In this document: positions 1-20,000 of the stretch, one piece after another
How positions within the stretch are numbered: position 1 is the first letter of the stretch
How the letters are laid out: every line of letters starts with the position of its first letter
From: Chiloscyllium plagiosum
Lineage: Eukaryota
Direction of reading: 5' to 3'
DNA: 20,000 bases
Assembly (NCBI RefSeq): GCF_004010195.1
Contig: NC_057757.1
Coordinates: 1,241,027-1,261,026 of the forward strand
The notes under the pieces: model-generated
Databases searched by the model: none
Seen by the model: the letters and a program-made list of their open reading frames with translations, nothing else
What the model was told of the DNA's origin: nothing
Translations under genes and position numbers: made by a program

Positions 1-110
1 CACATCAGAGCAAGCATGTTGGGCTGGAACCCTTCATCAGGTCCTGGTGAAGGGTCATTGCCTGTCCTGCTTTGATGCTAATCTGACCTGTGTTTCTGCA
101 GCTCCACATC
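1..110. mobile_element. Degenerate palindromic Penelope-type terminal-repeat element with hammerhead-like core (cut by window start)
   Basis: ACCCTTCATCAGG (29-41) and CCTGGTGAAGGGT (43-55) are a 12/13 inverted repeat. The minus strand reads CTGATGA-AGGG..CCC. The downstream GATGCT..CTGACCTG resembles the arms of the younger palindromes. Confidence 0.6.
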
Positions 111-1054: not shown

Positions 1055-2592
1055 TTGTACTGAGTCACAGTGGAAAGCTTTGCCTTGCAAGCAATACAGG
1101 CAGATCACATAGTTAAGTAGCATAGATAGGAAATAATAGGTAAACAGTGACAAAAACAAAAACACAAGTAAAAGCGAATGTTAAGAGTTTGAATCCATTC
1201 AGTATTCTAACAACAATAGAGTGGAAACTGTTGCAAAACTGGTTGGTATGTGTGTTCAGAGCTGAAAATGTGTTGCTGGAAAAGCGCAGCAGGTCAGGCA
1301 GCATCCAGGGAACAGGAGAATCGACGTTTCGGGCATAAGCCCTTCTTCAGGCTTATGCCCGAAACGTCGATTCTCCTGTTCCCTGGATGCTGCCTGACCT
1401 GCTGCGCTTTTCCAGCAACACATTTTCAGCTCTGATCTCCAGCATCTGCAGACCTCACTTTCTCCTGGTGTGTGTGTTCAGGCTTCTGTACCTTCTCCCC
1501 GATGGTAGAGGTTGTAGAAAAACATTGCCAGGGTGGGATGGATCTTTGAGAATGCTGGCGGCCTTTCCTTGACAGTGGGCCTGGTAGATGGATTCTATAG
1601 ATGGGAGGTTGGCCTTTGTGATTGTCCGGGCCGAGTTCACCGTTCTCTGTAACCGTCTCCGATCTCGAATGGTGCAGTTGCCATCCCAGGTAGTGATAGA
1701 TCTAGACCGAATGCTCTCTGCTGCACCCATAAAAATTGGCAAGGGTGTTTGCCGTCATGCCAAATTTCCTCAGCTGCCTGAGGAAGAAGAGACATTGTTG
1801 GGCCTTTGTAATCAGTGCGTTCACATGAGTCCAAGAAAGCTTGTTGTGGATGACCATTCCCAGGAGCTTGACACTCTCCACTCATTCCATCTTTGTGCTG
1901 TTAATGTGTAGGGGGGCATGAGTAACATCCAGCTAAAAGTCAATAATGAGTTCCTTGATTTTGCCAGCATTGAGAGTTAGGTTGTTCTCAGTGCACCATT
2001 TTTCCAGGTCTTCCACTTCCGGCTATAGTCCGTTTCGTCACCATTTGAGATTTGACCTATTATGGTAGTGTCATCAGCGAACTAGTAAATGGCATTAGTC
2101 TGGTATTTGGCGATGCGGTTGGGGTATACAGTGAGTACAGTAGGGGGCTGAATACGCACTCTTGGGGGGGGCTCCAGTGTTGAGTGTTGGTGAGGATGAA
2201 ATATTGTCCCCAATCTTCACTGACTGTGGCCTATGGGTCAGGTAACTGAGGATCCAGTTGCAGAGAGTGGGGCTTAGTCCGAGATCACTAAGTTTAGTAA
2301 TCTGTCTCGAGGGGACAATAGTGTTGAAGGCTGAACTGTAGTCAATGAGTAGGATTCTTATGTAGCTGGGTGTCAAGATGTTCTAGGGAGGAGAGAAGGG
2401 CCAGTGATTATGGCATCTGATTTGGATCTTTTGGTCCAATAGGCAAATTGGAGTGGGTCAATTGCAGTTGATTAATGCCATGACTGGCCTTTCAAAGTAC
2501 TTCATGACCATGGAAGTTAGGGCCACTGGGCGGTAGTCATTGAGACATGCTGCATGAGCCTTCTTAGGCCCAGGGATGATGTTGGCCCCCTT
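1055..2592 (-). mobile_element. 5'-truncated Rex1/Babar-type LINE, frameshifted RT
   Basis: Peptides [55 protein letters not shown], and C-terminal KAASILKDPSHPG..LPSGRRYRSL..FCNSF. Confidence 0.9.
1260..1465 (+). mobile_element. Palindromic hammerhead-containing non-autonomous element, copy 1
   Basis: Near-perfect inverted arms plus a unique tail ending CCTCACTTTCTCC. Flanked by the duplication TGGT(A/G)TGTGTGTTCAG at 1244-1259 and 1466-1481. Interrupts the Rex1 reading frame. Confidence 0.9.
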
Positions 2593-2599
2593 AAAACAG

Positions 2600-3235
2600 G
2601 TAGGTCGTTGATGAAGCAGCTGAAGAAGGTTGGGCCCAGAATGCTTATCTGAGGATCTCTTACAGATTCCTCTGGAAACTGAGATGACTGATCTCCAACA
2701 ATCACTATCCTCTTCCTTTGTTTTAGGTATGACTCCATCCAGAGTTTCACCCTGATTCACATTGACTCTCTAGTTTTGTTAGGCCTCCAGATTGCCATAC
2801 CCTGGTCAAAAGTTGTCTTGATGTCAAAGCAGTTACTGTCATATCACTTCTGGAGTTCAGCTGTTTAGTCTGTTTGAATCAAAGCTGTAATAAGAGTATG
2901 TGCTGAATGGCCCTGGTGGAACCATAATGAGCACCTAAGAGGAAGTTGTTACTGAGCAAGTGCTGCTTGATAGCAATGTTAATTATCCTTTCCATCCCTT
3001 CACAGTAGACTGGAGTGATAACTGGCTGGGTTGGATTTGTCCTTTTGTATGCAGGTCATACCTAGGCAACTTTCCAAATTGTCAGGTAGACACCAGTATT
3101 AAAGCTGTACTAAAACAGTTCTGGAGCACAAATCTTCAGTACTATTACTGGAATGGTGTCAGGGCCAGTAGCCTTCACAATATCTAGTGTCTTCAGCTGT
3201 TTTCTTGGTCACCTGGAGTGAATCAGCTTGGCTAA
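2600..3235 (-). mobile_element. Degenerate L2/CR1-clade LINE, RT N-terminal part
   Basis: Encodes W.ESYL.QRK...VGDQSS and [15 protein letters not shown], which in such RTs directly precedes the FADD motif seen near 1020. Confidence 0.75.
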
Positions 3236-3280
3236 AGGCTGAAGTGAGCAAAATTTGAAGAACAATAATGAGGGAAATGG

Positions 3281-3583
3281 GGGCCCGGTGTCTCAGTGAT
3301 TAGCACTGCTGCCTCACGGCGCCAGGGTCCCAGGTTCGATTCTAGCCTTGGGCAACTGTCAGTGTGGAGTTTGCGCATTCTCCCAGTGTCTGTGTGGTTT
3401 TCCTGCAGTTTGATCCCACAATCCAAAGATATGCAGGTGAGGTGAATTGGCCATGCTAAATTGTCCATAGTTAGGTGTGTTAGTCAGAGGAAAATGGGTC
3501 TGGGTGGGTTACTCTTCAGAGGGTCAGTGTGGACTTGTTGGGCTGAAGGACCTGTTTCCACACTGTCGAGAATCTAATCTAAA
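3281..3583 (+). mobile_element. tRNA-derived SINE (HE1/V-SINE-like)
   Basis: A-box-like TGTCTCAGTGA, B-box GGTTCGATTC, central TGTGGAGTTTGC.CATTCTCCC domain, CR1-like tail CCTGTTTCCACACTG and AATCT repeats. Confidence 0.85.
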
Positions 3584-4090
3584 CAATTAAGGGCTGAGTG
3601 CAAACACATAAGGATCCTCAGGACAGATACAGATGAAGGGAAGGCAGGAGAACAGAGTCAATGTACAATATATCAATGGTATTTGGTGATGATCTGCAGG
3701 TGGGGAACTTGAGTAAAACCAAATTAAGGAGCATAAATGTGGTTGATATTATTCCGATTATGGATGCAGTGAATGTTAATGAAGGGTAAACTGAAACCTC
3801 AAACTATACAAATATGTAGGTGATTTAAAGGTTAACGAGTGATCAAGAACACTAAGACAAGGGGTGAGAAAGTTAAATATTCACCTGTAAGAGCGAAAGA
3901 TTCCAAGGAAGTATTTTTGACTTGCGCAAATTACAAATTATATTGTGAATTAAAAAATGAAACTCTCGTTTTCTATTAAGAGTATGGCCAATGACTTGTT
4001 TGGTTAGAATTACACGAGTGGAAAGATAGAAAGCAAGCTATCATACTTAGCAAAGAGAAATAGGATGGAAAGTATTTGAAACCAAGTTTT

Positions 4091-4358
4091 TTAGATTAGT
4101 TTCCCCAGAGTGTGGGAACAGGCCCTTCAGCCCAACAAGCCCACACCGACCCTCCGGAGAGTAACCCACCCAAACCCATTTCCATCTGACTAATGTGCCT
4201 AACATTATGAGCAATTTAGCACAGCCAATTCACCTGGCATGCACATCTCTTTACTGTGGGAGGAAACCCACACAGACAGTCGCTCAAGGCTGGAATCAAA
4301 CCTGGGACCCTGGTGCTATGAGGCAGTAGTGCTAACTACTGAGCCACCGTGCCACCCC
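4091..4358 (-). mobile_element. tRNA-derived SINE (HE1-like), internally deleted
   Basis: Reverse-complement match to 3281-3583, and same-orientation match to 16678-16993. Confidence 0.85.
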
Positions 4359-4757
4359 ACTAATTTTCCAATCTTTATTGAATAGCATGTGAGAGCTTGG
4401 ATTCAGTCACTGTTTTATGTGGGTAACAGTAATTAAATCAGTGAGCTGTCTTTACCTTCTTTCTCATTTACTTATGACATGCCAAATAATTTAAACATGA
4501 CAGATATTCCATGAGGAGCTGAACTTCTGCATTAAGCTAACTTAGAGGTGATGATGCAGAAATTAGAATTCTATCTACAACTGCATGATAGATAAAATTT
4601 TGTGAGGCATCAAATGCAAAGCACTTTCAGCCTCAAGGGGAAGAATTGTAAGATTAGTAGGGAACTTAATTTTGAAACTAGCACCTTATAAATGACTTAT
4701 TTCAGCTATAATCACAGAATGAAAGTACATTAATTGATTGACCTAATATTATAGTAG

Positions 4758-4866
4758 AATGTGTTGCTGGAAAAGCGCAGCATCAAATGCTGCCTGACCT
4801 CCTGCGCTTTTCCAGCAACACATTTTTCAGCTCTGATCTCCAGCATCTGCAGTCCTCACTTTCTCC
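4758..4866 (+). mobile_element. Palindromic element copy 2, centre (hammerhead) deleted
   Basis: Arms AATGTGTTGCTGGAAAAGCGCAG / CTGCGCTTTTCCAGCAACACATT with the same tail. TSD TAATATTATAGTA at 4744-4756 and 4867-4879. Confidence 0.9.
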
Positions 4867-5224
4867 TAATATTATAGTATTCTGCCTAAGTATAGCCAAT
4901 GTACATTGTGACATTCTAACATCTTCTGACTTAGCTTCATTTTAACATAGGAAAGTACCATGGGATTGCAAACAGGTTGAAGACCATTATCTACTGTTTG
5001 ATTTCCAGCTAAAAGGCTGAGGAGCATCTGTTTAGTATCTGATCCAGACTTCCAAAGTTGAATAAGACAGTCCCAAGTTTGTTAGCCCTTGGCAAAGAAT
5101 CATGATGACAACAAAGCCCTGTCTTAAAGTGTTGCAGGTGACTAAATGTAACCATTGGGATGGAGTTACCTATGTACAATATAATCAACATTATAGTTAG
5201 CATTCTTTCTGATCTTGCGTATTA

Positions 5225-5425
5225 AGGGGGTTGGTTGTCTGGATGGCTGGCTTACAATCAGTGATGTATTAGCATGGGTTTAATTCTGGCACCAGCTGAC
5301 ATTACCATGAGGCACTCTGCTTCTCAACCCTGCCCCTCATCTGAGGTGTGGTGACCCTTGGGTTAAATCATCACCAGTCTTCTCTCTAGAAGCCCAATGA
5401 GCAGGTAGGACTATAGTGACTCTAT
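5225..5425 (+). mobile_element. Probable old SINE of a different family
   Basis: B-box-like GGGTTTAATTC and a TGGTGACCCT.GGGTTAAA..CACCAGTC motif recalled from shark SINEs. No second copy in the window. Confidence 0.35.
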
Positions 5426-5684
5426 CTTTGTGTTTCTTGCATTGCCTTTATGATGTTTCCAAATATTCCCGAAGCAAACTTTCAGTAATGTCTTTTCTAA
5501 TTTTGCCCTTGTTACTCCCAGTTCTTTCAGCTCCCATTCCCCTGCCATTTTAGTTTAAACTCTCCCTGTTTGCTTCAGCAAGTACACCATCTTTGTACAT
5601 CTCTCCAGCCATGTATTCAGCTGATGGTATCTGGCTATTTCTACCCTGACTAGCCATTCTGTCCAGTAACAAAATATTTGAGAT

Positions 5685-5740
5685 TTCATAGTCAGAGGTG
5701 TACAGCATGGAAACAGACCCTTCGGTCCAACCTGTCCATT
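5685..5740 (-). mobile_element. CR1 3' tail fragment
   Basis: TGTACAGCATGGAAACAGACCCTTCGGTCCAACC is the reverse complement of the tail at 17997-18031. Confidence 0.8.
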
Positions 5741-5967
5741 TCGTATTCTGGTTGTCTTGCTGAATCATTAACCAACCCTAGTTTTAGGAGAGATCATGTA
5801 TTCAGTGAGAATACAAGAACATGCTGACTTGTTCTGACCCTTGTAAGAAGTCTGAACTCCTGAATGAGAATCTTCAGTGCCAATTGTGCCATTATATAGC
5901 CTATTGAGTGCTCCATACATGAACAGCTTAGAAGTGCTGTCTCCATGTGGTAGTTTTGAAGCATATT

Positions 5968-6157
5968 AATGTGTTGCTGGAAAAGCGCAGCAGGTCAGGC
6001 AGCATCCAAGGAACAGGAGAATCGACGTTTCGGGCATAAGCCCTTCTTGCCCGAAACGTCGATTCTCCTGTTCCTTGGATGCTGCCTGACCTGCTGCGCT
6101 TTTCCAGCAACACATTTTCAGCTCTGATCTCCAGCATCTGCAGTCCTCACTTTCTCC
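5968..6157 (+). mobile_element. Palindromic element copy 3
   Basis: Inverted arms with a partly deleted centre and the same tail. TSD TTGAAGCATATTAA at 5956-5969 and 6158-6171. Confidence 0.9.
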
Positions 6158-6809
6158 TTGAAGCATATTAAATCAGGCTAAACTTGTTTTTGTCTTGTTC
6201 TTCATTTTGTTTGGGAGCATTGGTCCATTTTCACTTGGCTTGTAGCTTTCAGTTGCTCTGGCCATTGGGCCCATCTGCCATCAAGTCTGCTAATTCTGCC
6301 TACCGCTTGAATTTGTCTACCTGAAATTGGCTCCTGCTTTGCATTGGGTCTGCTGCATGTTCTCAACTTAACAATTGCAACTTGCTGCTACACAACCTTC
6401 CAGAATATGCTGCCTTGAGGTGTTAGTTAACGGAGTCTGCCTGCTCTGCAATTGCTAGTCTTTTTCCTGTGGTTGATTGGCTGTCGCCTGAGACTATCTC
6501 CTGTGGCCTCCTTAATTTACAACTCCCTCCATCTTGCTGGAATGTTGTTTGTAAACATCAGACATGGCTACCACTGCTGTTCATTGTAGTTTTAAACTTT
6601 CATGTCAATGCTGGATATTGGTATCGCTGTTCCAAAGAAAGTTCTACGACTGTCACCACCCAAGTGTGATTAAACATGTGCAGACGAGAAGTCTTGGGGA
6701 CTAGACTAACTTGAATTCTTTGGAGCAGGAGAGAAGGCATTAGTCTGATGTAACCTAATGACTCTTCCTGTTATTTATCCTGTTGATGCTGTCTTGTGCA
6801 AGGTGCACA

Positions 6810-7220
6810 TTCTTTGGTAGCAAGGCCAAAGTTCATGTTGCCCATTCTAGTTAACCATGGAGGTGGTGCTAAACTGCACTGAGTTACTGACATATGGTGT
6901 AGTTACACTTTCAGAGCTGCTGGGGAGACTTTCAGGACATTCACTGTCCAGAGGCAAAAGTAAGGAAGCTGCTTTGTCTTAGTGTTGAGCTATCTCAATT
7001 TGGGAACTGCACTCCACCCAAGTAGATGGGTGAACATTCCATTACATTTGACTTGTGCTTTTAGATAATGGTGTGAGATGAGTTACCCTCCTCAGAACTT
7101 CCAGCCTCTGCACTTGGAGCCATGGTATTGAGTGGCCTGGTTCAGTTTCTGGTTGGCTAACGCCTCGGATATTGATAATGGAAGAATTCATTATCATGCT
7201 ATCAGAGGGAGATGGCAGTC
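6810..7220 (-). mobile_element. Highly degenerate L2/CR1-clade LINE 3' region
   Basis: Patchy similarity to 700-830 (TTTCTGGTT) and to the reversed tail at 185-235. Confidence 0.45.
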
Positions 7221-7614
7221 AACGTCTAGTGGTCTTGAGTACTTTGTAAATTTTCTCTCTAACTCATTTGAGATGTCATATTGTACATACTGAAGGTATT
7301 ATGTGGTGCTTTGAAGTAAAATTAGTTTCAATAAACTCAGATAGCCTCATTACATTTCCCTTTTGAAACTAGAGTAACTGGATGATAAAAATATAGGAAA
7401 GTTCCTTTCGAAAGAACTGTACTGTGTATATCAAAAGTAGAAGTGCAATTTTGTAACTCCAAATTGATCTATCCAAAATGTTAGTGATTCTAAACCAGAC
7501 TGTCCACAATAGATCCCTGAAATAGGAAAGCAACCCTTGGTGCCTACATCATCAGGTTTCCGAATAGCCTTTCGCAGGATGACTCCTTAGTCAGTCACTG
7601 TCTCTGACTTCATA

Positions 7615-7872
7615 GGGAAGACCCTTCTAGAATGGAGATGAGGGGAAACTTCTTCAGCCAGAGTGGTGAATCGATGGAATTCATTGCCACAGAAGCCTGG
7701 AGGCCAAGTCATTGAGTGTATTTAGGACAGAGATAAGTTCTTGATTATCATAGGGCATCAAAGATTATGGGGAGAAAGGTTTCTCAACCCCGTTCTCTCA
7801 CTATCAGCCATGATTGAATGGCGGAGCAGACTTGATGGGCTGAATGGCCTAATTTCAGCTACTATGTCTTAA
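7615..7872 (+). mobile_element. CR1 LINE 3' fragment
   Basis: AACTTCTTCAGCCAGAG..GTGAATC..TGGAATTCATTGCCAC (FFSQRVV..WNSLP-type motif) and the GATGGGCTGAATGGCCT tail. Confidence 0.8.
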
Positions 7873-8974
7873 GATCTTTGCATTTGACTAGACCACCACT
7901 CAGCTGTAGCAGCAAATCTTTGAAGCACTGACCCTTTCAGCTCCATTGCAACATTTTGAGGGTTTGGCACTTAAAGAAATGAGATGTTAAAAAAACTGGA
8001 AGTCTCCATTTCAAAGGCAGCAGAGGCGGGATTAAGAAGATTTAACCACCTGACAGGTCTGTACCTGTCTTCTTTTTACACTGAAGGTCAATAAATGTTC
8101 ACTGAGCACTGCTAAGTCTTCTGGCTGTAAACAGATTACCTCTCGTCTTTATACTTTCCTAGTTACACATTTTTTGTTTTAAAAACCCTTCTGTTTTCCT
8201 TTATTCGATTCACCAATACTTTCTGATGCAATTTCTTAGGTTTCCTTATTTCCTTTTGGAATTCCTCCCCTGCACATTTTATAATACATGTGGGTTTCTG
8301 CTGTAATCAGCCTTCGGTCTCTGTCACAAGTTTCACTCTTTGTGCTAACTTATGAATCCCTTGGTATTTATAGTTGTTTGCTCTTAGTCACACCCTTATC
8401 ATTAGAATTTTATTCTCTTGCTATATCTTCCTAGCATGATTACGTTGTTCAATTTTAATTGGAAACAGCTGCTCTTTGTTCACCTGGACCAAATTTGCAT
8501 CTTTTTTAAAATTTAGTTTAAAACTTGATTCTTTCCCAGTCCATATGTTCATATCTGGATATCTTCCTCCATATCATTGCAATTCTCAGTCTTGAGTTAT
8601 GTTTAGTATATCCAAAAGGTTCTTACTGATAGCCTGACTTTTGAATATTAGGTTCATTTCGCTAGTAGCAGCAACAGTGGGTCGTGTAACAGCAGGCACC
8701 AGGGGCCTGCCGAGAAGGTAAATTTAAAATTATATAAACTTACCTTGTGAACAGGAGGAGTGCATGCTGAGCAGGAGCAGACACTGGACTGCTGAGTAAC
8801 TGAGGTAACATATTTGGGTGGTTGTGTTACCTGAAACACTACTTAGGTAGTGTCTCCCACCCATCCTCCTCTTCTAATCAAACAAAAGGTCTGTGCCCCG
8901 GATTGGAAAGGTAACTAATTTGTTTTTTTAAATATTTGTTTCTATCGTCTCTTTGAGAATTTAGAACAGTGGGA

Positions 8975-9845
8975 ATGGTAGTTAGGGCAGTTGAATGTTC
9001 CTCCTGCAGAATGTGGGAGGTAAGGGTCACCTCGAGTGTCCCTGCTGACTGCATCTGCAGGAAGTACACCCAACTCCAGCTCCATGGAAACTGTTAGGGA
9101 GCTGGAGCTGGATGAACTTTGGATCATTCGGGAGGGGGTTACAGGGAGGTAGCCACACTCAGATACAAGAAGAAGGTAGATGGGTTACCATCAGAGAATG
9201 GAAAGGGAACCGGCAGGTAGTGCAGGGAACTCCTGTGGCCGTTCCCCTCAATAACAAGTATACTGTTTTGGATACTGTTGGGGGGACAGGTCTCTGGCAT
9301 AGTCTGTCCCCCTTCCTGAGAAGGGAAGGGGAGAGAGGAGCAGAGCATTAGGGGACTACATAATTCAGGGGACAGATAGGAGATTCTGTGGGAAAGAGAG
9401 ACTCTCAATTGGTGTGTTGCCTCCCAGGTGCCAGGGTTTGTGATGTCTTGGATTGTGTTTTCGGGATCCTTGAAGCAGTGGGGGAAGCAGCCCCAAGTCG
9501 TGGTCCACATAGGCACTAACAACATAAGGAGGCAAAGGGATGTGGATCTAAGGCAGAAGTTCAGGGAGCTAGGGTGGAAGCTTAGAGCGAGAACAAACAG
9601 TTGTTATCTCTGGTTTGTTGCTTGTGACATGTGCTAGCGAGCTGATGAGTCAGGAGAGAGGAATTGAACACATGGCTACAGGGATGGTGCAGGAGGGAGG
9701 GATTCAGACACACAGATAATTGTGGCTCATTCTGGGGTAGGTGGGAACTCTACAAACAGGATGGTCTACATCTGAACCATAGGGTACCAATATCTTGGGT
9801 TGGGGGGAGAAATATGCTAATGCTATTTGGGATGGGAACCTAAAT
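8975..9845 (+). pseudogene. CR1 ORF1 remnant: Cys-rich zinc finger plus SGNH esterase-like domain
   Basis: MVVRAVECSSCRMWE...CICRK, VPLNNKYTVL, GDYII (GDS-like block), CCLPGARV, VVVHIGTNNI. Confidence 0.8.
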
Positions 9846-9934
9846 TATAGTTCCAGCGTCCAGGAGGTTGAGAGTGGTGAGGTCAGAAATATGGTTTCAA
9901 GGTCACAAGAGTTCACCAGCAATCAGGAAGGTGG

Positions 9935-12630
9935 TTTGAAGTATGTCTACTTCATCACCATGAGCATCTGGAATAAGGTGGGGGAACTTGCAACATGGGT
10001 TGGTACCTGGGACTTCGATGTTGTGGCCATTTCGGAGACATGGATAGAGCAGGGACAGGAATAGTTGTTGCAGGTTCTGGAGTTTAGATGTTTCAGCAAG
10101 AACAGAGAAGATGGTAAGAGGGGGAGTTGTGGCATTGTTAGTCAAGGATAATATTACGGTGGCAGAAAGGATGTTTGAGGACTCATCTACTAAGGTAGTA
10201 TGGGCTGAGGTTAGAAATGGGAAAAGAGAGGTCACAGTGTTGGGAGTTTTCTATAGGCCTCCAAATAGTTCCAGAGATGTAGAGGAAAGGATAGCAAAGA
10301 TGATTCTGAATAGGAGTGAGAATAACAGGGTAGTTGTTATGGGGAACTTTAACTTTCTAAATATTGATTGGAAATACTATAGTTCGAGTACTTTAGATGG
10401 ATCAATTTTTGTCCAATGTGTATGACCAACAATGGACAAGCTCACATTAGATTTGGTACTGGGTAATGAACCCGGCCAGGTGTTAGATTTGGAGATAGGT
10501 GAGTACTTTGGTGATAGTGACCACAATTCGGTTATGTTTACTTTAGCAATGGGAAGGGATACATATATACTGCAGGGTAAGAGTTATTACTGGGGGGAGA
10601 CATGTATGATGCAATTAGGTAAGATTTAGGATGCATTGCATGGGGAAGGAAATTGCGGGGATGGGCACAATTGAAATGTGGAGCTTATTCAAGGAACAGC
10701 TACTGCATGTCCTTGATAGGTATGTATTGGTCAGGCAGGGAGGAAGTGATCGAGTGAGGGAGCTGTGGTTTACTAAAGAAGTTGAATCTCTTGTCAAGAG
10801 GAAGAAGAAGAAGGCCTATGTTAGGAGGAGATGTGATGGCTCAGTTAGGGCACTTGAGAATTACAAGTTCTTCAGGAAAGACCTAAAGAGCTAAGAAGAG
10901 CCGGGGTAGGTGGGTGGGGGATATGGGAAGTCATTGGCAGGTAGGATCAAGGAAAACCCTAAAGCTTTCTATAGGTATATCAGGAACAAAAGAATGACTA
11001 GAGAAAGATTAGGGCCCTAGGCCAATCAAGGACAGTAGTGGGAAGTTGTGTGTGGAGTCCGAGGAGATAGAGGTAAGCACAAAATGAATATTTTTCATCA
11101 GTATTCACACTGGAAAAAGACAACATTGTCGAGGAGAATCCTGAGATACAGGGATACCAGATTAGATGGGATTGAGGTTCACAAGAAGGCGGTGTTAGCA
11201 ATTCTGGAAAGTGTGTAAATAGATAAGTCCCCTGGGTCGGATGGGATTTATCCTCTGATTCTCTGGGAAGCCAGCGGGGAGATTGCAGAGCCTTTGGCTT
11301 TGATCTTTATGTCGTCATTGTCTACAGGTATAGTGCCAGAAGACTGGAGGATAGCAAATGTCCCCTTGTTCAAGAAGGGGAGTAGGGATAACCCTGGTAA
11401 TTATAGACCAGTGAGCCTTACTTCAGTTGTGGGTAAAGTGTTGGAAAAGGTTAGAAGAGATAGGATTTAAATCCTATCGAGAGAGGAATAAATTGATTAG
11501 GGATAGTCAACATGGTTTTGTGAAGGGTAGGTCTTGCCTCACAAACCTTATTGAGTTCTTTGAGATGATGACCAAACCGGTGGATGAGGGTAAAGTGGTT
11601 GACGTGATGTATATGGATTTCAGTAAAGCATTTGATAAGGTTCCCACGGTAGGCTATTGCATAAAATATGGAGGGATGGGATTGAAGGTGATTTAGTGGG
11701 TTGGATCATAAATTGGTTAGCTGAAAGAAGATAGCATGATGGTTGATGGGAAATATTCATCTTGAAGTTCAGTTACTAGTGGTGTACCACAAGGATCTGT
11801 TTTAGAACCACTGGTATTTGTCATTTTTATAAATGACCTAGATGAGGGAAGGATGGGTTTGCAAATTTGTGGATGACACTAAGGTCAGTGGAGTTGTGGA
11901 TAGTGCTGAAGGATGTTGCAGGTTACAGAGGGACATAGATAAGTTGCAGAGCTGGGCTGACAGGTGGCAAATGGAGTTTAATGTGGAAAAGTGTGAGGTG
12001 ATTTACTTTGGAAGGAGCAACAAGAATAAATAGTACTGGGCTAATGATAAGATTCTTAGCAGTGAGAGATCTGTGTCCATGTATATAGATCCCTGAAAGT
12101 TGCCACCCAGGTTGATAGGGTTATTAAGAAGGCATATGATGTATTAGCTTTTATTGGTGGAGGGATTGAGTTTTGGAGCCACGAGATCATGCTATAGTTG
12201 TACAAAACTCTAGTGTGGCCGCACTTGGAGTATTGCATACAATTTTGGTCACCGCCTTATAGAAACTTTGGAAAGGGTGCAGAGGAGATTTACCAGGATG
12301 TTGCTTGATATGGAGAGAAGGTCTTATGCGGAAAGGCTGAGGGACTTGAGGCTGTTTTTGTTAGAGAGAAGGTGGCTAAGAGGTGACTTAATTGAGAGAT
12401 GGAAGATGATCAGAGGGTTAGATAGAGTGGACGGCACAGATGGTGACGGCTAGCATGAGGGAACATAGCTTTAAATTGAGGGGTGATAGATATAGGACAG
12501 ATGTCAGAGGTAGTTTCTTTACTCAGGGTAATAGGGACGTGGAATGCACTGCCTGCAACAGTAGTAGACTCACTAACCTTTAAGGGCATTTAAATGGTTG
12601 TTGGATAAATATATGGATGAAAATGGAATA
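9935..12630 (+). pseudogene. CR1 ORF2 remnant: APE endonuclease plus reverse transcriptase
   Basis: [99 protein letters not shown]. Confidence 0.92.
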
Positions 12631-12721
12631 GTGTCATTTGATGGGTTCAGACTGGTTCCACAGGTCAGTGCAACACTGAGGCTGAAGGGCAGGTACTGTG
12701 CTGTAATGTTCTATGTTCTAA

Positions 12722-13030
12722 AGAACAAAGAAAATTTACAGCCCAGAAACAGGCCCTTTGGCACACCCCCTCCCCCACCCCAAGCCTGCGTTGATCCAAA
12801 TCCACTGTCTAAACCTGTCGCCCAATTCCTAAGCCTCTGTATCCCCCTGCTCCACCTCCTGCATCTGTCCAGATGCATCTTAAATGAATCTACCGTGCCT
12901 GCCTCTACTACCTCTGCTGGCAACGCGTTCCAGGCACCCTACCACCCTCTATGTAAAGTACTTGCCTTAAGCTTTTCACCTCTCGCCTTGAAAGCGTGAC
13001 TTCTCGTTATTGAATCCTTCACCCTGGGAA
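12722..13030 (-). mobile_element. CR1 3' fragment, tail-to-tail with the preceding element
   Basis: Minus-strand peptide PAEVVEAGTVDSFKMHLD, and tail ACAGCCCAGAAACAGGCCC. Confidence 0.85.
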
Positions 13031-13079
13031 CTGTTCTGTCCTGTTTTGGGTGTCTACTTACTAGCTGAAAACATTCTTT

Positions 13080-13954
13080 ATGTAATTTTGGAAATTTGCT
13101 TCCTCCCTCTTACACTAAAACTATCCAAGATGATACTCTGATAGGCAAACTCCTGGACTAGTACTGCTGTATCATTCTTACACTTGAAATTTGATATTTT
13201 GATCCCCTCCCTTACTGTTGGAGCCTACAGTTCCAATAGTGTTTGCCTCTTTTGTGTATTTTACTCCTATTTAAAGGCTTCATTTGACACACCTTGCAAG
13301 ATAGTATCCCTTTTCACTAACATAATGGATTCCTTGATCAATAGTGTGACATCCCTAACTTGCTCTTCTATTCCCCCTCCATTTTATCTTTAATCCAGGA
13401 ATATTGAATCTAGCCCATCTTTTAGCCAAGTCTTGGTCAACAATTCAATGTTCGTATCTTTGCCCTCAACCCGTTGGTTTTATTTCTCTGAACACAGAAC
13501 AGTACAGGCCCTTTGGCCCTCTAAGATCAGACTAACCTACATACCCTTTACCCTTCATTGTACTAACTTCCATGTGCTTATCCAAGAGTCACTTAAATGT
13601 CCCTCATGTATCTATCAATTCTATATCTGAGGCTCCTTGTATTGAAATATTCCATTGAGCCTTAAACTTGCTTCTTTAGCCCATGCTTCCTCTGCCTTCC
13701 AAACCCCCTCACTAGTGTTTTAACTTCCAATTCCAACTCAGCTTCTCTCCCCACTAAGCTACCTGTTGGGATCTCAATCCCAAGCCAATTTAGTTTTAAA
13801 TCTGCCCCAATAATATTAGCAATACTCCCCAAAAGGATGTTCCCATTCCTGTTCAGATGTAACTCACCTAAGGTGTGCAGGTCCTAACTCTCGCAGAAAT
13901 GGTTCCGAACCTCAGTAGTCAAAAGCCCTCCCTCCTGCAGCACCTTTTCAGTCT
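13080..13954 (-). mobile_element. Old degenerate CR1 (ORF1/APE region) with a nested CR1 tail near 13490-13620
   Basis: Reverse-complement similarity to 9680-9780 (CCCTCCCTCCTGCA, CCCATTCCTGTTCAGATG) and to the YRPPNS region near 13210-13240. Confidence 0.5.
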
Positions 13955-14548
13955 TGTTATAGGGCAGACTAAACACACCTTAAACTCATCAAAGAGATGG
14001 CCTAACATTTCTTAAAGCAATTGTAAGGTGCTGTGTTCCAGATGTAATTGGATTGGTCATACTACTCAGCTTTACTCAGAACATGCTTTTTCTTTACAGG
14101 TCAAGCACAAACAAAGGAAAAAGACTTGGAATAACTTTACACTGTTGGCAAACTTAACAAAATCATAAATCATTGAAGGACTCAACAGCAATTGCTTCAA
14201 AATGGTAACATCCCATAAACATACCCTTGGCAAAGGCAAATTCAGTAAAATTGTCTCATGCAATATTTTTCCAATCCAGGAGGAAAGAACATCAAAAGAA
14301 AGTTCTGGCAGAGAGATAGTGTTTTGCTATGGACAGCTTCAAAGCCCTAAAAGCTAAACTGAAACCCTGGATCTGTGGGAGCCTGACCCCACCCATTCAG
14401 GTTGCATCTATTATTCCAACTTTTAAATAAAAAAACTCCAAGGTGCCTCAAGCTGTTTACTTTATTGGCCAGGAACAGACTAAGCATCACCTCTGTCTCA
14501 AACTCTCCATTTTTCTTTTCAAATAAACAAAAAGACAAAACACACCTC

Positions 14549-14763
14549 TTAGATTAGATTACATTACAGTGTGGAAACAGGCCCTTCGGCCCAACAAGTC
14601 CACACCAACCTGCCGAAGCGCAACCCACCCATACCCCTACATTTATCCCTTACCTAACACTACGNNNNNNNNNNNNNNNNNNNNNNNNNNNNNNNNNNNN
14701 NNNNNNNNNNNNNNNNNNCGCTGTGAGGCAGCAGTGCTAACCACTGTGCCACTGTGCCGCCCA
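14549..14763 (-). mobile_element. HE1-like SINE spanning an assembly gap
   Basis: Both sides of the N-run match 16678-16993. Confidence 0.85.
14665..14718. other. Assembly gap (54 N)
   Basis: Run of N. Confidence 1.
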
Positions 14764-15169
14764 CAAAGTCATAGTGTCAGCACACCTTCCTTCTCTTCCA
14801 TCCTTCTGCACTCAACTAGTAATGTACAAAGATGGCTTCACTTTTAAAACACTTTAATCTCAGTATTAGCATACTACAAACATTTACATTACATTGACTG
14901 TAAACATGCAAACATTCATATGCTGCAGTCCATTTCAATCAGTTTCTTCCACCACGGAGTGTCTTCATCCTTCCAAGTTGTTGCAACGTGTCAGCATTTA
15001 TGTTCTCGTATTCTGCCATTTGCAAAGTCTTCAAATGAAATGCCTGTAACAATAAATTCTATCTGAACTCTGGTATTTTTATCTTTTTTTTTCCAAAAAA
15101 TGTTAAGGGGCTATGATCAGGATACGGAATTTGTTCAGGTATTACTGGTGACCTAACTGTTGAAAAGTT

Positions 15170-15315
15170 GCAAAGCCGGTGTTGGACTGGGATGGATAAA
15201 GTTTCAAAATTACACAACACCAGGTTAGAGTCCAATAGGTTTATTTGGAAGCATCAGTACAAGCTTTCAGAGTGCTGCTCCTTCGTCAGATAGCAAATTG
15301 GGCAGGATCATAGGA
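15170..15315 (-). mobile_element. Penelope-type terminal repeat of a second family with degenerate minimal hammerhead
   Basis: Minus strand reads CTGACGA-A-GGAG-CAGCA-CTCT-GAAA-GC-TT (15289-15261), followed by AATAAA. Confidence 0.6.
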
Positions 15316-15483
15316 CGCCTAGAGATCATCATGTCCGATTATTCGACTATATGTCAAATTGTAGGGAAAGAATATATCAGGTGAGTTGGCTGGACAGCAT
15401 TTGAAAGTAACACGTGATGAAACAGGAAGCAGACATGACAAAATATCTTTAGTTTCACTTGAGGAGATAAACTATTGCTATCA

Positions 15484-15566
15484 GTGAAACTGAGATTCAC
15501 CTGCATCTCCTCCAACCTAGTTTAAGGCATCCAGAACTCCCGATGTAGTCTTCTCTACATTGGTGT
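15484..15566 (+). pseudogene. Penelope-like GIY-YIG endonuclease remnant, N-part
   Basis: VKLRFTCISSNLV*GIQNSRCSLLYIG matches the PLE pattern FTC.S.N.VY.I.C..C...YIG. Confidence 0.8.
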
Positions 15567-16218
15567 TGTTACGGACTAGGCCAGTCCACTCAAAACATTC
15601 TTAAGCAGGCAGCCCCAGACTATAACTTTGCAATTTGTTTCAGTAAGTGTACAGTGAACATTACCTGGAATAGGTTAGCAAGGTTGACGACCAGGTTTTA
15701 AACAGACAAACATTTATTCACAAAATTACACAATGAAACACAAAGAACAGAATAATGAACCCTTACAGAACTCAGTCTATCCAAACTAGACTTAATTATG
15801 CTGTTCGCAATATATACACAGTCCCAATAAGCAAACTCCCTTTAAAACCCACTATAAATGGAACACATGCTTACAGGTTGAAGTTGAAGGGCAGAAAGAG
15901 AGAGAGAGAGAGAGAGTTTACGCACAGCTCCCTGTTGAACTTCTCACTAGTTCAGGACTGAACTAAACTGCTCAGTTAGAGAGCTGACCACTCCCCTTTC
16001 ATTGTACAGGTCACTTCTAAAATATGACCACTTTGTCTTGAAGTCTCATCTGTTTACATATAAACAAAAGACCTCTCAAAATCTTTTTCATCTCTGTACC
16101 AAACCGGACTGATTGGAGCCTGGCCGGGTTTGTTGCCCCTCTGAAAAAAATCAAAGACAGAGTCTCCGTGAGCCAAGGATCAGCTTTTAGAAAAAAAAAA
16201 CGGCCTAGCTTTGTGACA
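15567..16218 (-). mobile_element. Solo LTR (652 bp)
   Basis: TGTTAC...GTGACA termini, minus-strand AATAAA near 15715, degenerate 4-bp TSD GTGT/GTTA. Splits the YIG-ETK coding sequence. Confidence 0.8.
15897..15916. repeat. (AG)10 microsatellite inside the LTR
   Basis: Direct read. Confidence 0.95.
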
Positions 16219-16677
16219 GTTAGACCAAACAAAAACGAAGGCAACATTTGTCGAGCATCTCAGCCAGGCTTGTAAAGGCCTGACCTCCCAGTCACCACCC
16301 ATTTCACTTCCCCTTCCCACTCCCTGTCCAAAATATCCATCCTCAGCCTCCTCATTTGCCATAGTGAATCGGACTGCAAATTGGCGCAGCAATGCCTGGG
16401 CAGCCTACACCCCAGAGGACTCAACACTGAGTTCTCCCATTTCAAATAACCTTCCAACCCATTTCCTACCTTGCTTTTCAGCCACGTCAACTCCTCCCTT
16501 CCATTCCACCTACTGACTCTTCCTTCCAGCTACCAATGAGATTCATTCCTCCCGTCGACCAACCCAATCGTACCCATCTCTTTATTTGCAGGTCCACCTA
16601 ACCCCAGCTCTATTCCTGGAGAAGGGTTACACCCAAAATATTGAGTTCTCCAGCTCCTGATGCTGCCCGGCTTGTGT
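16219..16677 (+). mobile_element. Penelope-like element 3' part: GIY-YIG C-terminus, 3'UTR and decayed hammerhead
   Basis: TK..FVEHL..DLPVTTHFTSPSHS..CLGSLHPRGLNTEFSHFK* (stop 16447-16449). CTGGAGA-AGGGTTACACCC-AAAA starts at 16616. Confidence 0.82.
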
Positions 16678-16993
16678 TTAGATTAGATTCGATTACTTAC
16701 AGTGTGGAAACAGGCCCTTCGGCCCAACAAGTCCACACTGACCCACCGAAGCGCAACCCACCCAGACTCATTCCCCTACATTTACCCCTTCACCTAACAC
16801 TACGGGCAATTTAGCATGGCCAATTCACCTGACCTGCACATTTTTGGACTGTGGGAGGAAACCGGAGCACCCGGAGGAAACCCACGCAGACACGGGGAGA
16901 ACGTGCAAACTCCACACAGTCAGTTGCCTGAGGCGAGTATTGAAGCCGGGTCTCCGGAGCTATGAGGAAGCAGTGCTAACCACTGTGTCACCA
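16678..16993 (-). mobile_element. tRNA-derived SINE (HE1-like), near complete
   Basis: AGATT repeats, CR1-like tail, central domain and tRNA-like head on the minus strand. Confidence 0.9.
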
Positions 16994-17544
16994 TTCTCTG
17001 GGGAAGAGAAATCCCCCAGGCTCACCACCCTTTGAGAGGGCTTATCCTATTTTGCAACATCTGTCATAGTGTTTTTCCTAAACCATTAACACTGGGACTT
17101 CACATGTCCTATTTTATTATCGTGAAAACATTGGAGGGATTTTGTTTCTGTTACACCCTCATAGGTTTCTTTTCATAACCTGTGGTAAACTATCTTTACT
17201 GTCTTCAATGGAATCTTCGTTCCTTTTACTACCTGAGGATTTGTCTCTTTCATCAATTTCTACCCCTCACAGATTGAACTTGATGTTCAAAGTCAAACTT
17301 TGATTTATGAACTAATTTCTAATCATCTACCATCTCTGCTATTAATCTTGCAGTTTTAACTCTCTGCCGTTCAACATGAGTTCTCGCTACTTCAGGAAGT
17401 GAGTCTCTCTGAGAGCATCATATGTTTGATCTATTTTCCATGACCTTATCCATAATATCTTTGTTTGATCCTTTCAGACTCTGTATGTTTGACCAGGTTC
17501 CCTCCTTAATTCCTAAAATTTTGTCTATAAGTTCTGGCACTAGT

Positions 17545-18042
17545 TGTGAAACTTGAAAGGGTTCAGAAAAGATTTACAAGCATGTTGCCAGGGTTGGAGG
17601 ATTTGAGCTATAGAGAGAGGCTGAACAGGTTGGGGCTGTTTTCCCCGGAGCACTGGAGGCTGAGGGGTGACCTTATAGAGGTTTACAAAATTATGAGGTG
17701 CATGGATAGGATAAATAGGCAAAGCCTTTTCCCTGGGGTCGGGGAGTCCAGAACTAGGGGGCGTAGGTCTAGGGTGAGAGGGGCAAGATATAAGAGAGAC
17801 CTAAGGGGCAACTTTTTCATGTAGAGGGTGGTATGTGTATGGAATGAGCTGCCAGAGGAAGTGGTGGAGGCTGGTACAATTGCAACATTTAAGAGGCATT
17901 TGGATGGGTATATGAATAGGAAGGGTTTGGAGGGATATGGGCTGGGTGCTGGCAGGTGGGACTAGATTGGGTTGGGATATCTGGGTCAGCATGGATAGGT
18001 TGGACCAAAGGGTCTGTTTCCATGCTGTACATCTCTATGACT
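17545..18042 (+). mobile_element. CR1 3' fragment
   Basis: KLERVQKRFTSMLPGLEDLSYRERLNRLGLFS..RLRGDLIEVYKIM, and a tail ending CTCTATGAC. Confidence 0.92.
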
Positions 18043-18868
18043 TAAGATGGCTTTATCCACCTCATCATATTCCCCAGATTCATCCCCCAGGATGTGGTGA
18101 AAAGAGCCACCTTAAGTGCACATCAACCTGTGCTAACAAATTAAATTGGCCAGTGACCATGTTGGTATTGGTGATTCAAACAAAATTGGTCAGGAGGTCT
18201 CGTGAGGTAAGTGCCTCATTATCAGGTTCACCCACAGGATGAGGTAATCTCCAGGATGAATCTGATAGCGATGCAAATACTTCACTAGCTCAACCTATCA
18301 GTTTTCTTTGAATTAACAAAACCAACAGTCACTGGCCATTTCATTTGTTTAGCCACTTTCTCAAATGAAATGAAAAACGCTTCTATGTCCTTCTCATCAG
18401 ATGTTAGTAATGCTTGGACATACTTTAACAGATCCCCACCAGGTCTTTGGCTCCGATGGATTTGCTCTTCATCACTTTTCCCATCACCACTACTATCTTC
18501 TATCTTCTCCACCATTTGAAGTCAACTTTCAATGCAGACTTCTGAAGTTCAAGACTTCTTCCTTTCTCCCTGTGTCTTCTGCTAGAGCTTTCCTTCCTCT
18601 TGCTTTTTCCTCTGCTTTTAATCATCATTCAAACTGTTTCATTTCCTTTTCATATTTGTGCTGCTTTAGTTGCAACTATTCTGTTTGCATTCCTGGCGAT
18701 TGTAAATGCAGAGTAATGGCTGCAATGATCTCCCCCTTCCTCGCAGAAATCAGCAACTCCAACTCCAATTTATCTGCCAATTCCAAAAGCTTTGCCTTGT
18801 TGACATTCTTTAAAGCAGCTAAGTGAGTTCTTCGACCCCAGGAAACCTTTAATGACTGAACGATCCAT
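18040..18868 (-). pseudogene. Gypsy-type (possibly Gmr1-like) LTR retrotransposon gag remnant
   Basis: ATG at 18868, then KLLELADKLELE, a charged coiled-coil-like region, DEKDIEAFFISFEKVAKQMKWP, ASEVFASLS, and after an interruption SGEYDEVDKAILS. Confidence 0.75.
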
Positions 18869-18979
18869 TACGGAACACCCTGCTCAAACCAACTGAACAC
18901 CTGAAAATAACATTAACACTCACCACTCACTGTCTTTGAGTCCAATAATTTTAAACTCAAGCTGGAATTAAAGATTTTT

Positions 18980-18998
18980 ATCTTGACAAGAGCCTCCA
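18980..18998 (-). promoter_or_regulatory. Degenerate tRNA-Pro-like primer binding site
   Basis: Minus strand TGGAGGCTCTTGTCAAGAT resembles the Pro PBS TGGGGGCTCGTCCGGGAT. It lies 3 nt from the putative LTR end and upstream of gag. Confidence 0.55.
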
Positions 18999-19001
18999 AT
19001 T

Positions 19002-19078
19002 AGTTATCTACCAGATCAAGACCCCTTAAATATATCAAGGAGATAGTCTAGACCCTAACTTCCATCTTATTTAAAGGT
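19002..19078 (-). mobile_element. Truncated 5' LTR (U5 end) of the gag-bearing element
   Basis: Adjacent to the PBS. Resembles the starts of the LTRs at 13955 and 15567. Confidence 0.55.
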
Positions 19079-19557
19079 ACATATATTGGTCAGAGTATTG
19101 AGTACAGGAGCTGGGAGGTCATGTTGAGACTGTACAGGACATTGGTTAGGCCACTTTTGGAATATTGTGTGCAATTCTGGTCTCCTTCCTATCAGAAGGG
19201 TGTTGTGAAACTTGACAGGGTTCGGAAAAGATTTACAAAGAAGTTGCTGGGGTTGGAGGATTAGCTATAGGGAGAGGTTGAATAGGGTGGGGCTGTTTTC
19301 CCTGGAGCTTCGGAGGCTGAGGGGTCCCTGTCAAGGTTTATAGAATCATGAGGGGCAATGATAGGATAAATAAACAAAGTCTCTTCCCTGGGGTGGGGGA
19401 GTCCAGAACTAGAGGGCAGAGATTTAGGGTGAGGGGGGAAAGATATAAAAGAGACCTATGGGGCAACTTTTTCATGCAGTGGGTGGTACGTGTATGGAAT
19501 GAGCTGCCAGGGGGACGGTTCAATTATAACATTTATCTGGATGGGTATATGAATAGA

Positions 19558-19776
19558 GGAGAAAGTGAGGACTGCAGATGCTGGAGATCGGAGCTGAAAA
19601 TGTGTTGCTGGAAAAGCGCAGCAGGTCAGGCAGCATCCAAGGGACAGGAGAATTGACGTTTCGGGCATAAGCCCTTCTTCAGGTTCCTGAAGAAGGGCTT
19701 ATGCCCGAAACATCGATTCTCCTGTTCCTTGGATGCTGCCTGACCTGCTGCGCTTTTCCAGCAACACATTTTCAGC
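19558..19776 (-). mobile_element. Palindromic element copy 4, most complete centre
   Basis: Opposite orientation (tail on the left). TSD TGGGTATATGAATAG at 19542-19556 and 19777-19791. Confidence 0.9.
19650..19719. ncRNA. Two divergent minimal type I hammerhead ribozyme motifs
   Basis: Both strands read CTGAAGA-A-GGGC-TTAT-GCCC-GAAA-C-(A/G)TC. Stem I is imperfect in this copy. Confidence 0.65.
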
Positions 19777-19866
19777 TGGGTATATGAATAGGAAGGGTTT
19801 GGAGGCATATGGGCCAGGTGCTGGCAAATGGGACTAGATTGGTTAGGATATCTGATTGGCATGGAG

Positions 19867-19963: not shown

Positions 19964-20000
19964 TAAAAACAATGACTGCAGATGCTGGAAACCAGATTCT
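19964..20000 (-). mobile_element. Tail of a relative of the palindromic element (cut by window end)
   Basis: Shares GACTGCAGATGCTGGA with 19570-19585. Confidence 0.55.

What the first reader, a model, noticed from the sequence alone, without database searches (positions are those of the whole stretch)
1260..19776. Young family of palindromic, hammerhead-centred non-coding retroelements (4 copies in 20 kb)
Seen: copies at 1260, 4758, 5968 and 19558 have near-identical arms. Each has one fixed end (CCTCACTTTCTCC), one variably truncated inverted end, and a different 13-16 bp TSD. Where it survives, the symmetry axis sits just 5' of CTGAAGA-A-GGGC-TTAT-GCCC-GAAA-C-GTC. Known: Penelope-like elements carry minimal hammerheads in their terminal repeats and often insert with an inverted, truncated repeat. 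Inference: these look like MITEs but are RNA-mobilised, retrozyme-like parasites of a Penelope RT/GIY-YIG enzyme. The long variable TSDs and asymmetric ends argue against a DNA transposase.
Basis: partly seen in the sequence, partly recalled or inferred. Interest (0 to 1): 0.75.

Follow-up and report, generated by a model that had tools for sequence, protein, structure and literature searches.

The report
Head-to-head Penelope retroelement stubs, shark
The four small mirror-image inserts are real, young and very abundant, and they have the known layout of Penelope-type jumping-gene insertions; they are likely dead-end stubs made when the enzyme copies the front of its RNA from both cut DNA ends, not a ribozyme-driven parasite, because their ribozyme motif is missing, broken or predicted to be locked shut.

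Summary
All four copies and their 12-16 bp target duplications are confirmed. Each is two head-to-head copies of one 127-nt arm. One arm carries an extra 35-42 nt tail. This is the published layout of Penelope-like element (PLE) insertions: inverted pseudo-LTR, one-sided tail, TSD. A 71%-alike arm lies 170 nt behind a PLE endonuclease remnant in this window. The family is very abundant in three organisms, and the arm continues upstream of the axis in reads.

The retrozyme reading fails. The centres differ in all four copies. Only 2 of 8 arms keep an exact hammerhead core, none keeps helix I, and stem II has pairing probability 0 in whole copies. The inserts run uncut across the GUC site.

Likely mechanism: both nicked target ends prime copying of the RNA's 5' leader, and the copies join head to head. 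The commonest centre variant fits run-off at a capped RNA start. No autonomous ORF of this exact family was reached. The scan noted this same kind many times before on other DNA. Verdict: new member of a known kind, with a modest mechanistic clue.

The parts
1260..1466 (.). Copy 1: tail-less arm 1260-1351 (- strand, arm positions 1-92) joined to tail-bearing arm 1350-1466 (+ strand, positions 11-127); 2-nt overlap at the joint; tail 1432-1466
1245..1259 (+). Left TSD of copy 1; partner at 1467-1481 with one mismatch; its last 4 letters also fit the arm
1323..1350 (-). Exact minimal hammerhead core (CUGAAGA, extra A, 4-bp stem II, GAAA, CGUC); no helix I 5' strand beyond one base
   Evidence: pattern scan
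4757..4867 (.). Copy 2: tail-less arm 4758-4786 (- strand; positions 85 back to about 48, with a likely 12-nt internal loss) and tail-bearing arm 4787-4867 (+ strand, positions 48-127); no hammerhead
4742..4756 (+). Left TSD of copy 2; partner at 4865-4879; up to 3 letters shared with the element's end
5968..6158 (.). Copy 3: tail-less arm 5968-6048 (- strand, positions 5-85) and tail-bearing arm 6048-6158 (+ strand, positions 17-127); both hammerhead cores cut short
5956..5969 (+). Left TSD of copy 3; partner at 6158-6171
19557..19777 (.). Copy 4 (reversed): tail-bearing arm 19557-19683 (- strand, positions 1-127; tail 19557-19591) and tail-less arm 19684-19777 (+ strand, positions -2 to 92); inserted in a LINE 3' end
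19655..19682 (-). Exact minimal hammerhead core; helix I cannot form (no upstream strand, and the base after GUC is changed)
19687..19714 (+). Hammerhead core with one change (GUC to AUC, breaking the ACGU self-complementary helix III)
19542..19556 (+). Left TSD of copy 4; partner at 19777-19791
17905..17919 (+). Paralogous empty site: the same 15 letters stand once in another copy of the LINE
15454..16446 (+). Old PLE GIY-YIG endonuclease remnant in two pieces (15454-15564, 16252-16446), split by a ~650-bp insert; a related, older family
16615..16674 (+). Hammerhead arm 170 nt behind that remnant's stop codon; 71% alike to arm positions 1-62; stem II has a compensatory change (C-G to U-A)
   Evidence: E 3e-4; 0 of 2000 shuffles reach its score
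1..110 (.). Old palindrome of a related family, cut by the window's start; axis at 42, again just 5' of CCTG
   Evidence: (0 of 2000 shuffles on the + strand; 123 of 2000 on the - strand)

Best explanation
These are the shortest insertions of a young Penelope-like retroelement: two head-to-head copies of its hammerhead-bearing terminal repeat with a one-sided tail and a 12-16 bp duplication, likely built anew at each landing rather than copied as a ready-made palindrome. Steps: (1, shown) Both outer ends are oriented so that the strand attached to each target 3' end is antisense to the RNA. (2, inferred, by analogy with the Anolis enzyme in PMC11167929) The RT/GIY-YIG enzyme nicks both strands about 14 bp apart and primes copying at two internal sites of the RNA, arm positions 85-92 and 127; the stretch between them is the tail. 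(3, inferred) Copying runs towards the RNA's 5' end without hammerhead cleavage, since the inserts span GUC. It stops at the RNA start just upstream of CUGA, or earlier. (4, inferred) The two products are joined head to head, by end-joining with 0-2 nt of overlap, or by fold-back of the leading copy and pairing with the second. The hammerhead is a passenger, and the finished stub is predicted to be inactive. My odds: PLE origin 0.95; built per insertion 0.8; priming from both ends 0.65; run-off at a capped start 0.45.
For: Layout: inverted 5'-truncated pLTR, one-sided 30-40 bp tail and TSD are described in PMC3846280 and PMC8557442 (passages); here the tails are 35, 42, 42 and 35 nt. Link to PLEs: the 57-aa piece at 16276-16446 hits 34 proteins. 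The 7 that I read end in the same C-terminal motif, and 3 of those 7 have weak GIY-YIG Pfam hits below cut-off. Two RT + GIY-YIG proteins found through one of them match both pieces of the remnant weakly, E 7e-4 to 0.71. The related arm follows 170 nt later. Abundance: 57,764, 58,189 and 36,929 contigs laid on one arm in three organisms. Summed depth over the arm is 1.5-1.7 times that over the tail (the tool warns that depth is no copy number). Upstream continuation: loose ends beyond CCTGA begin with the same letters in all 4 runs (166-281 records each) and in the 3 runs that laid anything. Centres: 4 of 4 differ; the 15 of 36 joints shown have 1-2 contigs per run each. Hammerhead: stem II probability 0.0 in all 4 places where it occurs in whole copies, against 0.997-0.999 in a single arm. 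PMC11167929 (parts 1-2 of 4 read): both strands cut and extended, two start sites bounding the tail, hammerhead mutants still insert, no RNA reads ending at the cut site.
Against: No ORF of this exact family was reached: no genome is held, four collection scans found nothing and the 40-residue frame of the arm has no Pfam match. The endonuclease link rests on an older arm, 71% alike over 63 nt. Differing centres could also come from deletions in a palindrome after insertion, or from assembly error: c1 and c3 equal c4 minus 14 and 23 central bases. c4 and the old palindrome share nearly the same full centre, as an inherited centre would. Many contigs run upstream past the proposed RNA start (293 loose ends at 19684 in each of two runs, against 58-74 at each of 19685, 19687, 19692), so run-off there is not the rule. 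RNA reads show no pile-up of starts at the axis (table 6). Arkhipova 2013 explains such junctions by self-priming on an antisense template instead. Four copies are few.
Confidence: 0.72

Rival explanations
1. One reading: a separate non-autonomous, retrozyme-like family. The palindrome itself is transcribed, processed by its hammerheads and re-inserted by a PLE enzyme; centres decay afterwards.
For: Very high abundance and small, similar sizes. c1 and c3 can be read as c4 with central deletions. One full centre variant is common in three organisms (37, 20 and 40 contigs). Both arms of c1 share a variant at position 44. Head-to-tail 127-nt tandems of the arm exist (25, 36 and 19 contigs), and these do look like non-LTR retrozymes.
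Against: Only 2 of 8 arms have an exact core and none has helix I; stem II probability is 0.0 in whole copies. Hammerhead processing would put ends at GUC, yet the inserts span it and no end lies there in the four copies. In 3 of 3 hammerhead-bearing copies the tail-less arm reaches further 5', a bias that later deletions would not be expected to give (c2 fits only under one reading). The defining tandem layout is absent.
Confidence: 0.12
2. Same PLE origin, but the mirror arm arises by self-priming on an antisense transcript (Arkhipova 2013), with one priming event at the target and not two.
For: Proposed in PMC3846280 for head-to-head palindromic junctions. All centres here are hairpin-like with 2-11 nt loops. 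RNA reads lie on both strands (723 and 234 depth at the tail end).
Against: It does not by itself give a clean TSD with two different, recurring outer ends. The Anolis enzyme extends both strands from two sites on a sense RNA. The 2-nt loop of c4 is too tight for plain fold-back.
Confidence: 0.12
3. A MITE: a fold-back DNA transposon that happens to be built from PLE sequence.
For: Long inverted arms, small size, high copy number.
Against: The ends are not symmetric (35-42 nt tail on one side), TSDs are long and differ in sequence and length, and the arm also occurs singly, in tandem and behind a PLE endonuclease.
Confidence: 0.02

Closest known systems
Insertion units of endonuclease-bearing Penelope-like elements with inverted pLTR, one-sided tail and TSD (Arkhipova et al. 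2013, PMC3846280; Craig et al. 2021, PMC8557442 Fig. 2 legend)
   Same: Head-to-head inverted 5'-truncated repeat, palindromic junction, 30-40 bp tail at one end, TSD.
   Different: Here there is no ORF between the arms (110-220 bp in all), and TSDs are 12-16 bp against 8-10 bp in the Adineta passages read.
Poseidon element PAc of Anolis carolinensis in vitro (Frangieh et al. 2024, PMC11167929)
   Same: Hammerhead followed by two RT start sites that bound the tail; both strands cut and extended; hammerhead cleavage dispensable.
   Different: The parts I read do not describe short palindromic products or how inverted junctions form. PAc prefers AT-rich targets; here the TSDs are 53-92% AT against 57% for the window. 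The clade of this family (Poseidon or Neptune) was not tested.
Minimal type I hammerheads of metazoan PLEs (Cervera and De la Pena 2014, PMC4209133)
   Same: Core boxes, extra base before stem II, G-C first pair of stem II, self-complementary helix III. That paper also notes pairs of motifs 100-700 bp apart on opposite strands.
   Different: Helix I (4-5 bp there) is cut away by the axis. Sharks are not named in the parts I read.
Non-LTR retrozymes (Li et al. 2026, bioRxiv 10.64898/2026.07.22.740005)
   Same: Non-coding, pLTR-derived, hammerhead-bearing, dependent on PLEs; found in one chondrichthyan.
   Different: They are head-to-tail tandems with a complete hammerhead in each unit; these four are head-to-head with missing or trapped hammerheads.

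Membership tests
EN+ Penelope-like element insertion | Inverted, 5'-truncated terminal repeat joined head to head | tested here: met
   4 of 4 copies; feature from PMC8557442 and PMC3846280
EN+ Penelope-like element insertion | 30-40 bp tail at one end only | tested here: met
   35, 42, 42 and 35 nt; two are slightly above the quoted range
EN+ Penelope-like element insertion | Target-site duplication | tested here: met
   12-16 bp in 4 of 4; 0 of 300 controls reach 9 exact; empty paralogue for c4
EN+ Penelope-like element insertion | Minimal hammerhead in the terminal repeat | tested here: met
   Exact core in 2 of 8 arms, one change in a third; no Rfam hammerhead hit
EN+ Penelope-like element insertion | The repeat flanks an RT + GIY-YIG ORF in an autonomous copy | tested here: inconclusive
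   Not reached for this family. A 71%-alike arm follows a GIY-YIG remnant. The arm continues upstream in reads
Non-LTR retrozyme | Head-to-tail tandem with at least two complete hammerheads | tested here: not met
   All four are head-to-head. Head-to-tail tandems of the arm occur elsewhere but are not these copies
Non-LTR retrozyme | Hammerhead able to fold in the transcript | tested here: not met
   Predicted only: stem II probability 0.0 in whole copies; helix I absent
Non-LTR retrozyme | Self-cleavage and circular RNA | not testable with these tools
   No pile-up of read ends in one poly(A) single-cell run, but such fragmented libraries cannot show RNA ends
MITE | Symmetric terminal inverted repeats flush with both ends (feature recalled, from no call) | tested here: not met
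   One-sided 35-42 nt tail in 4 of 4
MITE | Short TSD of fixed length (feature recalled, from no call) | tested here: not met
   12-16 bp, four different sequences
Named Repbase/Dfam family | Match to a deposited consensus | not testable with these tools
   Neither library is on hand; the family may already be named there

The most novel reading that the evidence does not exclude
The stubs are a fossil record of how Penelope elements make their inverted ends. One enzyme dimer primes at both nicks on one uncut, capped RNA that starts at the A three bases before CCUGA. The leading (tail-less) copy runs off the cap, gains a C opposite it and folds back over a 3-nt loop; the new strand then pairs with the tail-bearing copy. 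This would explain the GG[AAT]CC centre, the only indel listed at the 1% threshold (three organisms). It would also explain the AATC letters at one tandem joint and the tail-less arm reaching further 5' in 3 of 3 hammerhead-bearing copies. The hammerhead would mark the RNA's front edge without cutting it.
Probability: 0.3. Interest if true: 0.6.

Novelty: new member of a known kind. Interest (0 to 1): 0.3.

Why it matters
As a class it is ordinary: the layout is in print and this scan has noted the same kind many times. Its use is as test material. Craig et al. 2021 call the formation of PLE tandem and inverted structures undefined, and Frangieh et al. 2024 leave the steps after priming unvalidated. 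A young family laid on tens of thousands of contigs per run, with clean TSDs and short junctions, lets one count start sites, stop sites and cap signatures directly. It also warns annotators that these hairpins pass for MITEs or microRNA precursors (16 of 17 weak Rfam hits).

Tried and rejected
No whole genome is held, so no genome-wide table of TSDs or ends could be made. Pattern scans found 0 matches in viral contigs, metagenome contigs and prokaryote genomes. Rfam gave no hammerhead. Pfam found nothing for the 57-aa remnant or the 40-residue open frame of the arm. A word-based protein search with the remnant found nothing. One search was wasted: the query P0008 is a receptor model with a PLE piece at its end, and all 120 listed hits were neuromedin-U receptors or their unnamed look-alikes. 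Of the 34 hits I read 7 and ran Pfam on 9. Ten long proteins with several short stretches at 35-40% identity were set aside as likely chance; the two of them that I scanned carry unrelated domains. No RNA holder was listed. Run X22 laid 0 of 8,328,510 reads, which is no test. X21 laid 2,217 of 12,955,460 reads with no pile-up of ends; the library type cannot show ends. The fuzzy hammerhead scan printed nothing. Concordance of the two arms at position 44 in 3 of 3 copies is uninformative: about 0.27 by chance at a 23% variant share (my arithmetic). A look-up of earlier findings by sequence and one near this place returned nothing. Paper searches for a description of short palindromic PLE copies in sharks, or of twin priming in PLEs, gave no such paper in the listings; the library lacks most subscription papers. 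The text supplements of PMC11167929 held none of four terms; its Figs S1-S2 and the bioRxiv supplements could not be seen and may bear on the claim.
Full report
Observation. The window holds four copies, c1 1260-1466, c2 4757-4867, c3 5968-6158 and c4 19557-19777 (reversed). I number the arm from the first C of CCTGA (1) to the fixed end (127), using c4's long arm. Each copy is an antisense arm followed by a sense arm: c1 92-1 then 11-127; c3 85-5 then 17-127; c4 (read reversed) 92 to -2 then 1-127; c2 85 to about 48 then 48-127. The arms differ from their majority by about 9 changes in about 725 bases (my tally). TSDs are 12-16 bp, far beyond 300 random controls (longest exact 8). The c4 TSD stands once in a paralogous LINE copy. 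So the insertions are real and young. The host is inferred to be a cartilaginous fish: the 7 protein hits that I looked up come from rays, skates and the whale shark, and earlier notes say shark.

What needs correcting. c2 has no hammerhead and c3 has two cut cores. The exact core survives in 2 of 8 arms, with one change in a third. None has helix I beyond two pairs, because the axis removes its 5' strand. The 'variable' outer end lies at 85 or 92, which leaves a one-sided extension of 42 or 35 nt. Rfam gave 17 sub-threshold matches and no hammerhead.

What it is. Craig et al. (PMC8557442; 9 passages read) and Arkhipova et al. (PMC3846280; 11 passages) describe PLE insertions with an adjacent inverted 5'-truncated repeat, a 30-40 bp tail on one end, palindromic head-to-head junctions and a TSD. 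Cervera and De la Pena (PMC4209133; parts 1-2 of 4) define the minimal hammerhead and mention pairs on opposite strands 100-700 bp apart. The four copies are this layout with nothing between the arms. The window gives its own link to a PLE. A frame at 16276-16446 hits 34 proteins; the 7 read share its C-terminal motif and 3 of them have weak GIY-YIG hits. Through one of them I found two RT + GIY-YIG proteins, which match two pieces of the window weakly; the ray and skate proteins match better, at E down to 1e-14. An arm 71% alike to positions 1-62 lies 170 nt behind the stop codon (0 of 2000 shuffles), with a compensatory change in stem II. This is an older family, so an autonomous partner of the young family itself is inferred, not shown.

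Public runs. Twenty of 24 listed runs, from 4 coded organisms and 10 studies, hold half or more of c4's sampled words; one may be the window's own source. One arm laid on 57,764, 58,189 and 36,929 contigs in three organisms. Depth over the arm is 1.5-1.7 times that over the tail, as two arms per tail would give, though the tool says depth is no copy number. Beyond CCTGA the loose ends begin with a shared upstream stretch in DNA and RNA, so the family is longer than the stubs. Beyond the tail the DNA loose ends agree poorly (0.35), so that is a true insertion boundary. Head-to-tail 127-nt tandems also occur (25, 36 and 19 contigs). At the centre, the 15 of 36 joints shown have 1-2 contigs per run each. 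The only indel listed at the 1% threshold is one added base that gives the centre GG[AAT]CC, in 37, 20 and 40 contigs. Both calls print only the best-supported rows, so these are not full counts.

Why not a retrozyme. Li et al. (bioRxiv 10.64898/2026.07.22.740005; parts 1-3 of 5) define active non-LTR retrozymes as tandems with a complete hammerhead in at least two units. These copies are head to head. On either strand the antisense arm is made first, and stem II has probability 0.0 in whole copies against 0.997-0.999 in one arm (a prediction). The inserts span the GUC at 27-29, so their template was uncut. Frangieh et al. (PMC11167929; parts 1-2 of 4) found likewise that hammerhead mutants still insert and that no RNA reads end at the cut site.

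Mechanism. Shown by the sequence: at both target ends the strand joined to the target's 3' end is antisense, starting at 127 on one side and 85-92 on the other, with 0-4 letters shared with the target. Inferred from the Anolis enzyme, which cuts and extends both strands from two internal sites bounding the tail: both nicks prime on the RNA's 5' leader and the products join head to head. Four different centres between near-identical arms suggest that the joint is made at each landing. Against this: c1 and c3 equal c4 minus 14 and 23 central bases, so later deletion or assembly error is not excluded.

The bolder step. The upstream letters put an A at -3 in a context that fits the initiator consensus (recalled, from no call); the older arm at 16615 has the same A, though helix I could equally explain that conservation. 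A copy that runs off at -3 and gains a C opposite a cap ends in AATC. These letters appear at one tandem joint and begin the letters at one other joint among the 12 of 113 rows shown, and fold-back of such an end gives exactly GG[AAT]CC. A blunt joint of one arm ending at -3 and one at +1 gives the same centre. c4's 2-nt loop does not fit fold-back unless a base was lost, many contigs run past -3, and RNA reads show no pile-up of starts there. I took the capped-RNA idea from earlier notes of this scan and tested it only against these rows. In 3 of 3 hammerhead-bearing copies the tail-less arm reaches further 5'; c2 fits only if its short arm is read with a 12-nt loss.

Novelty. The layout is known. 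Seven paper searches (listings only, except the papers named here and 4 passages of PMC6155905) showed no account of short palindromic PLE copies in sharks or of twin priming in PLEs. Repbase, Dfam and most subscription papers could not be searched. The scan has 14 distinct earlier notes of this kind in the two look-ups that returned rows (8 rows each, one row shared, and one on a parent-element remnant), in this and other genomes; they are not independent support. Verdict: new member of a known kind, interest 0.3; the cap run-off and fold-back model has probability about 0.3 and would deserve 0.6.

Noticed in passing
window 15454-16674 (+): Old 5'-truncated PLE copy: GIY-YIG remnant with stop codons, split by a ~650-bp insert with TG...CA ends (15567-16218, solo-LTR-like, no clean TSD seen), then a 3' stretch and a hammerhead arm.
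   Followed up: partly
window 15261-15289 (-): A third minimal hammerhead family (CUGACGA, 5-bp stem II partly decayed, GAAA-GCUU), with AGCU in place of ACGU as the self-complementary helix III.
   Followed up: no
window 1-110: Old palindrome of a related family with its axis one base before CCTG, nearly the same spot as in c4.
   Followed up: partly
window 19967-20000: Tail of a sister family in reverse orientation, cut by the window's end (23 nt at 87% to arm positions 92-114).
   Followed up: no
window 16578-16591 and the upstream loose ends: A pyrimidine run ending in CAG lies 23-24 nt before CCTG in both the old arm and the young family's upstream consensus. It could be a 3' splice site; PMC4209133 places the D. 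virilis Penelope intron end at helix I.
   Followed up: no
window 19557-19683, joints: Head-to-tail tandems of the whole 127-nt arm (25, 36, 19 contigs) and of the 33-nt tail (6, 11, 3 contigs) exist in all three organisms; the former are the real retrozyme candidates of this family.
   Followed up: no
window 19652 (arm position 32): A variant holding 36% of the depth in one organism and under 1% in the other two would turn a U-U mismatch of helix I into a U-A pair.
   Followed up: no
window 19559, run X21: 165 RNA reads share one flank beyond the tail that holds a poly(A) signal on the sense strand, which suggests one well-expressed transcript carrying an arm near its 3' end.
   Followed up: no
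proteins P0007, P0008, P0011, P0013, P0015: Public gene models (four from rays and skates, P0015 not looked up) end in PLE endonuclease sequence fused to unrelated parts or names (mucin-2, neuromedin-U receptor 1); likely annotation artefacts.
   Followed up: no
window about 9000-12700 (+), 1480-2800 (-), 17540-18040 and 19090-19850 (+): Decayed LINE copies (RT matches; shared 3' ends) and several SINE-like repeats (families D4, D7, D13, D14); an N gap at 14665-14718.
   Followed up: no
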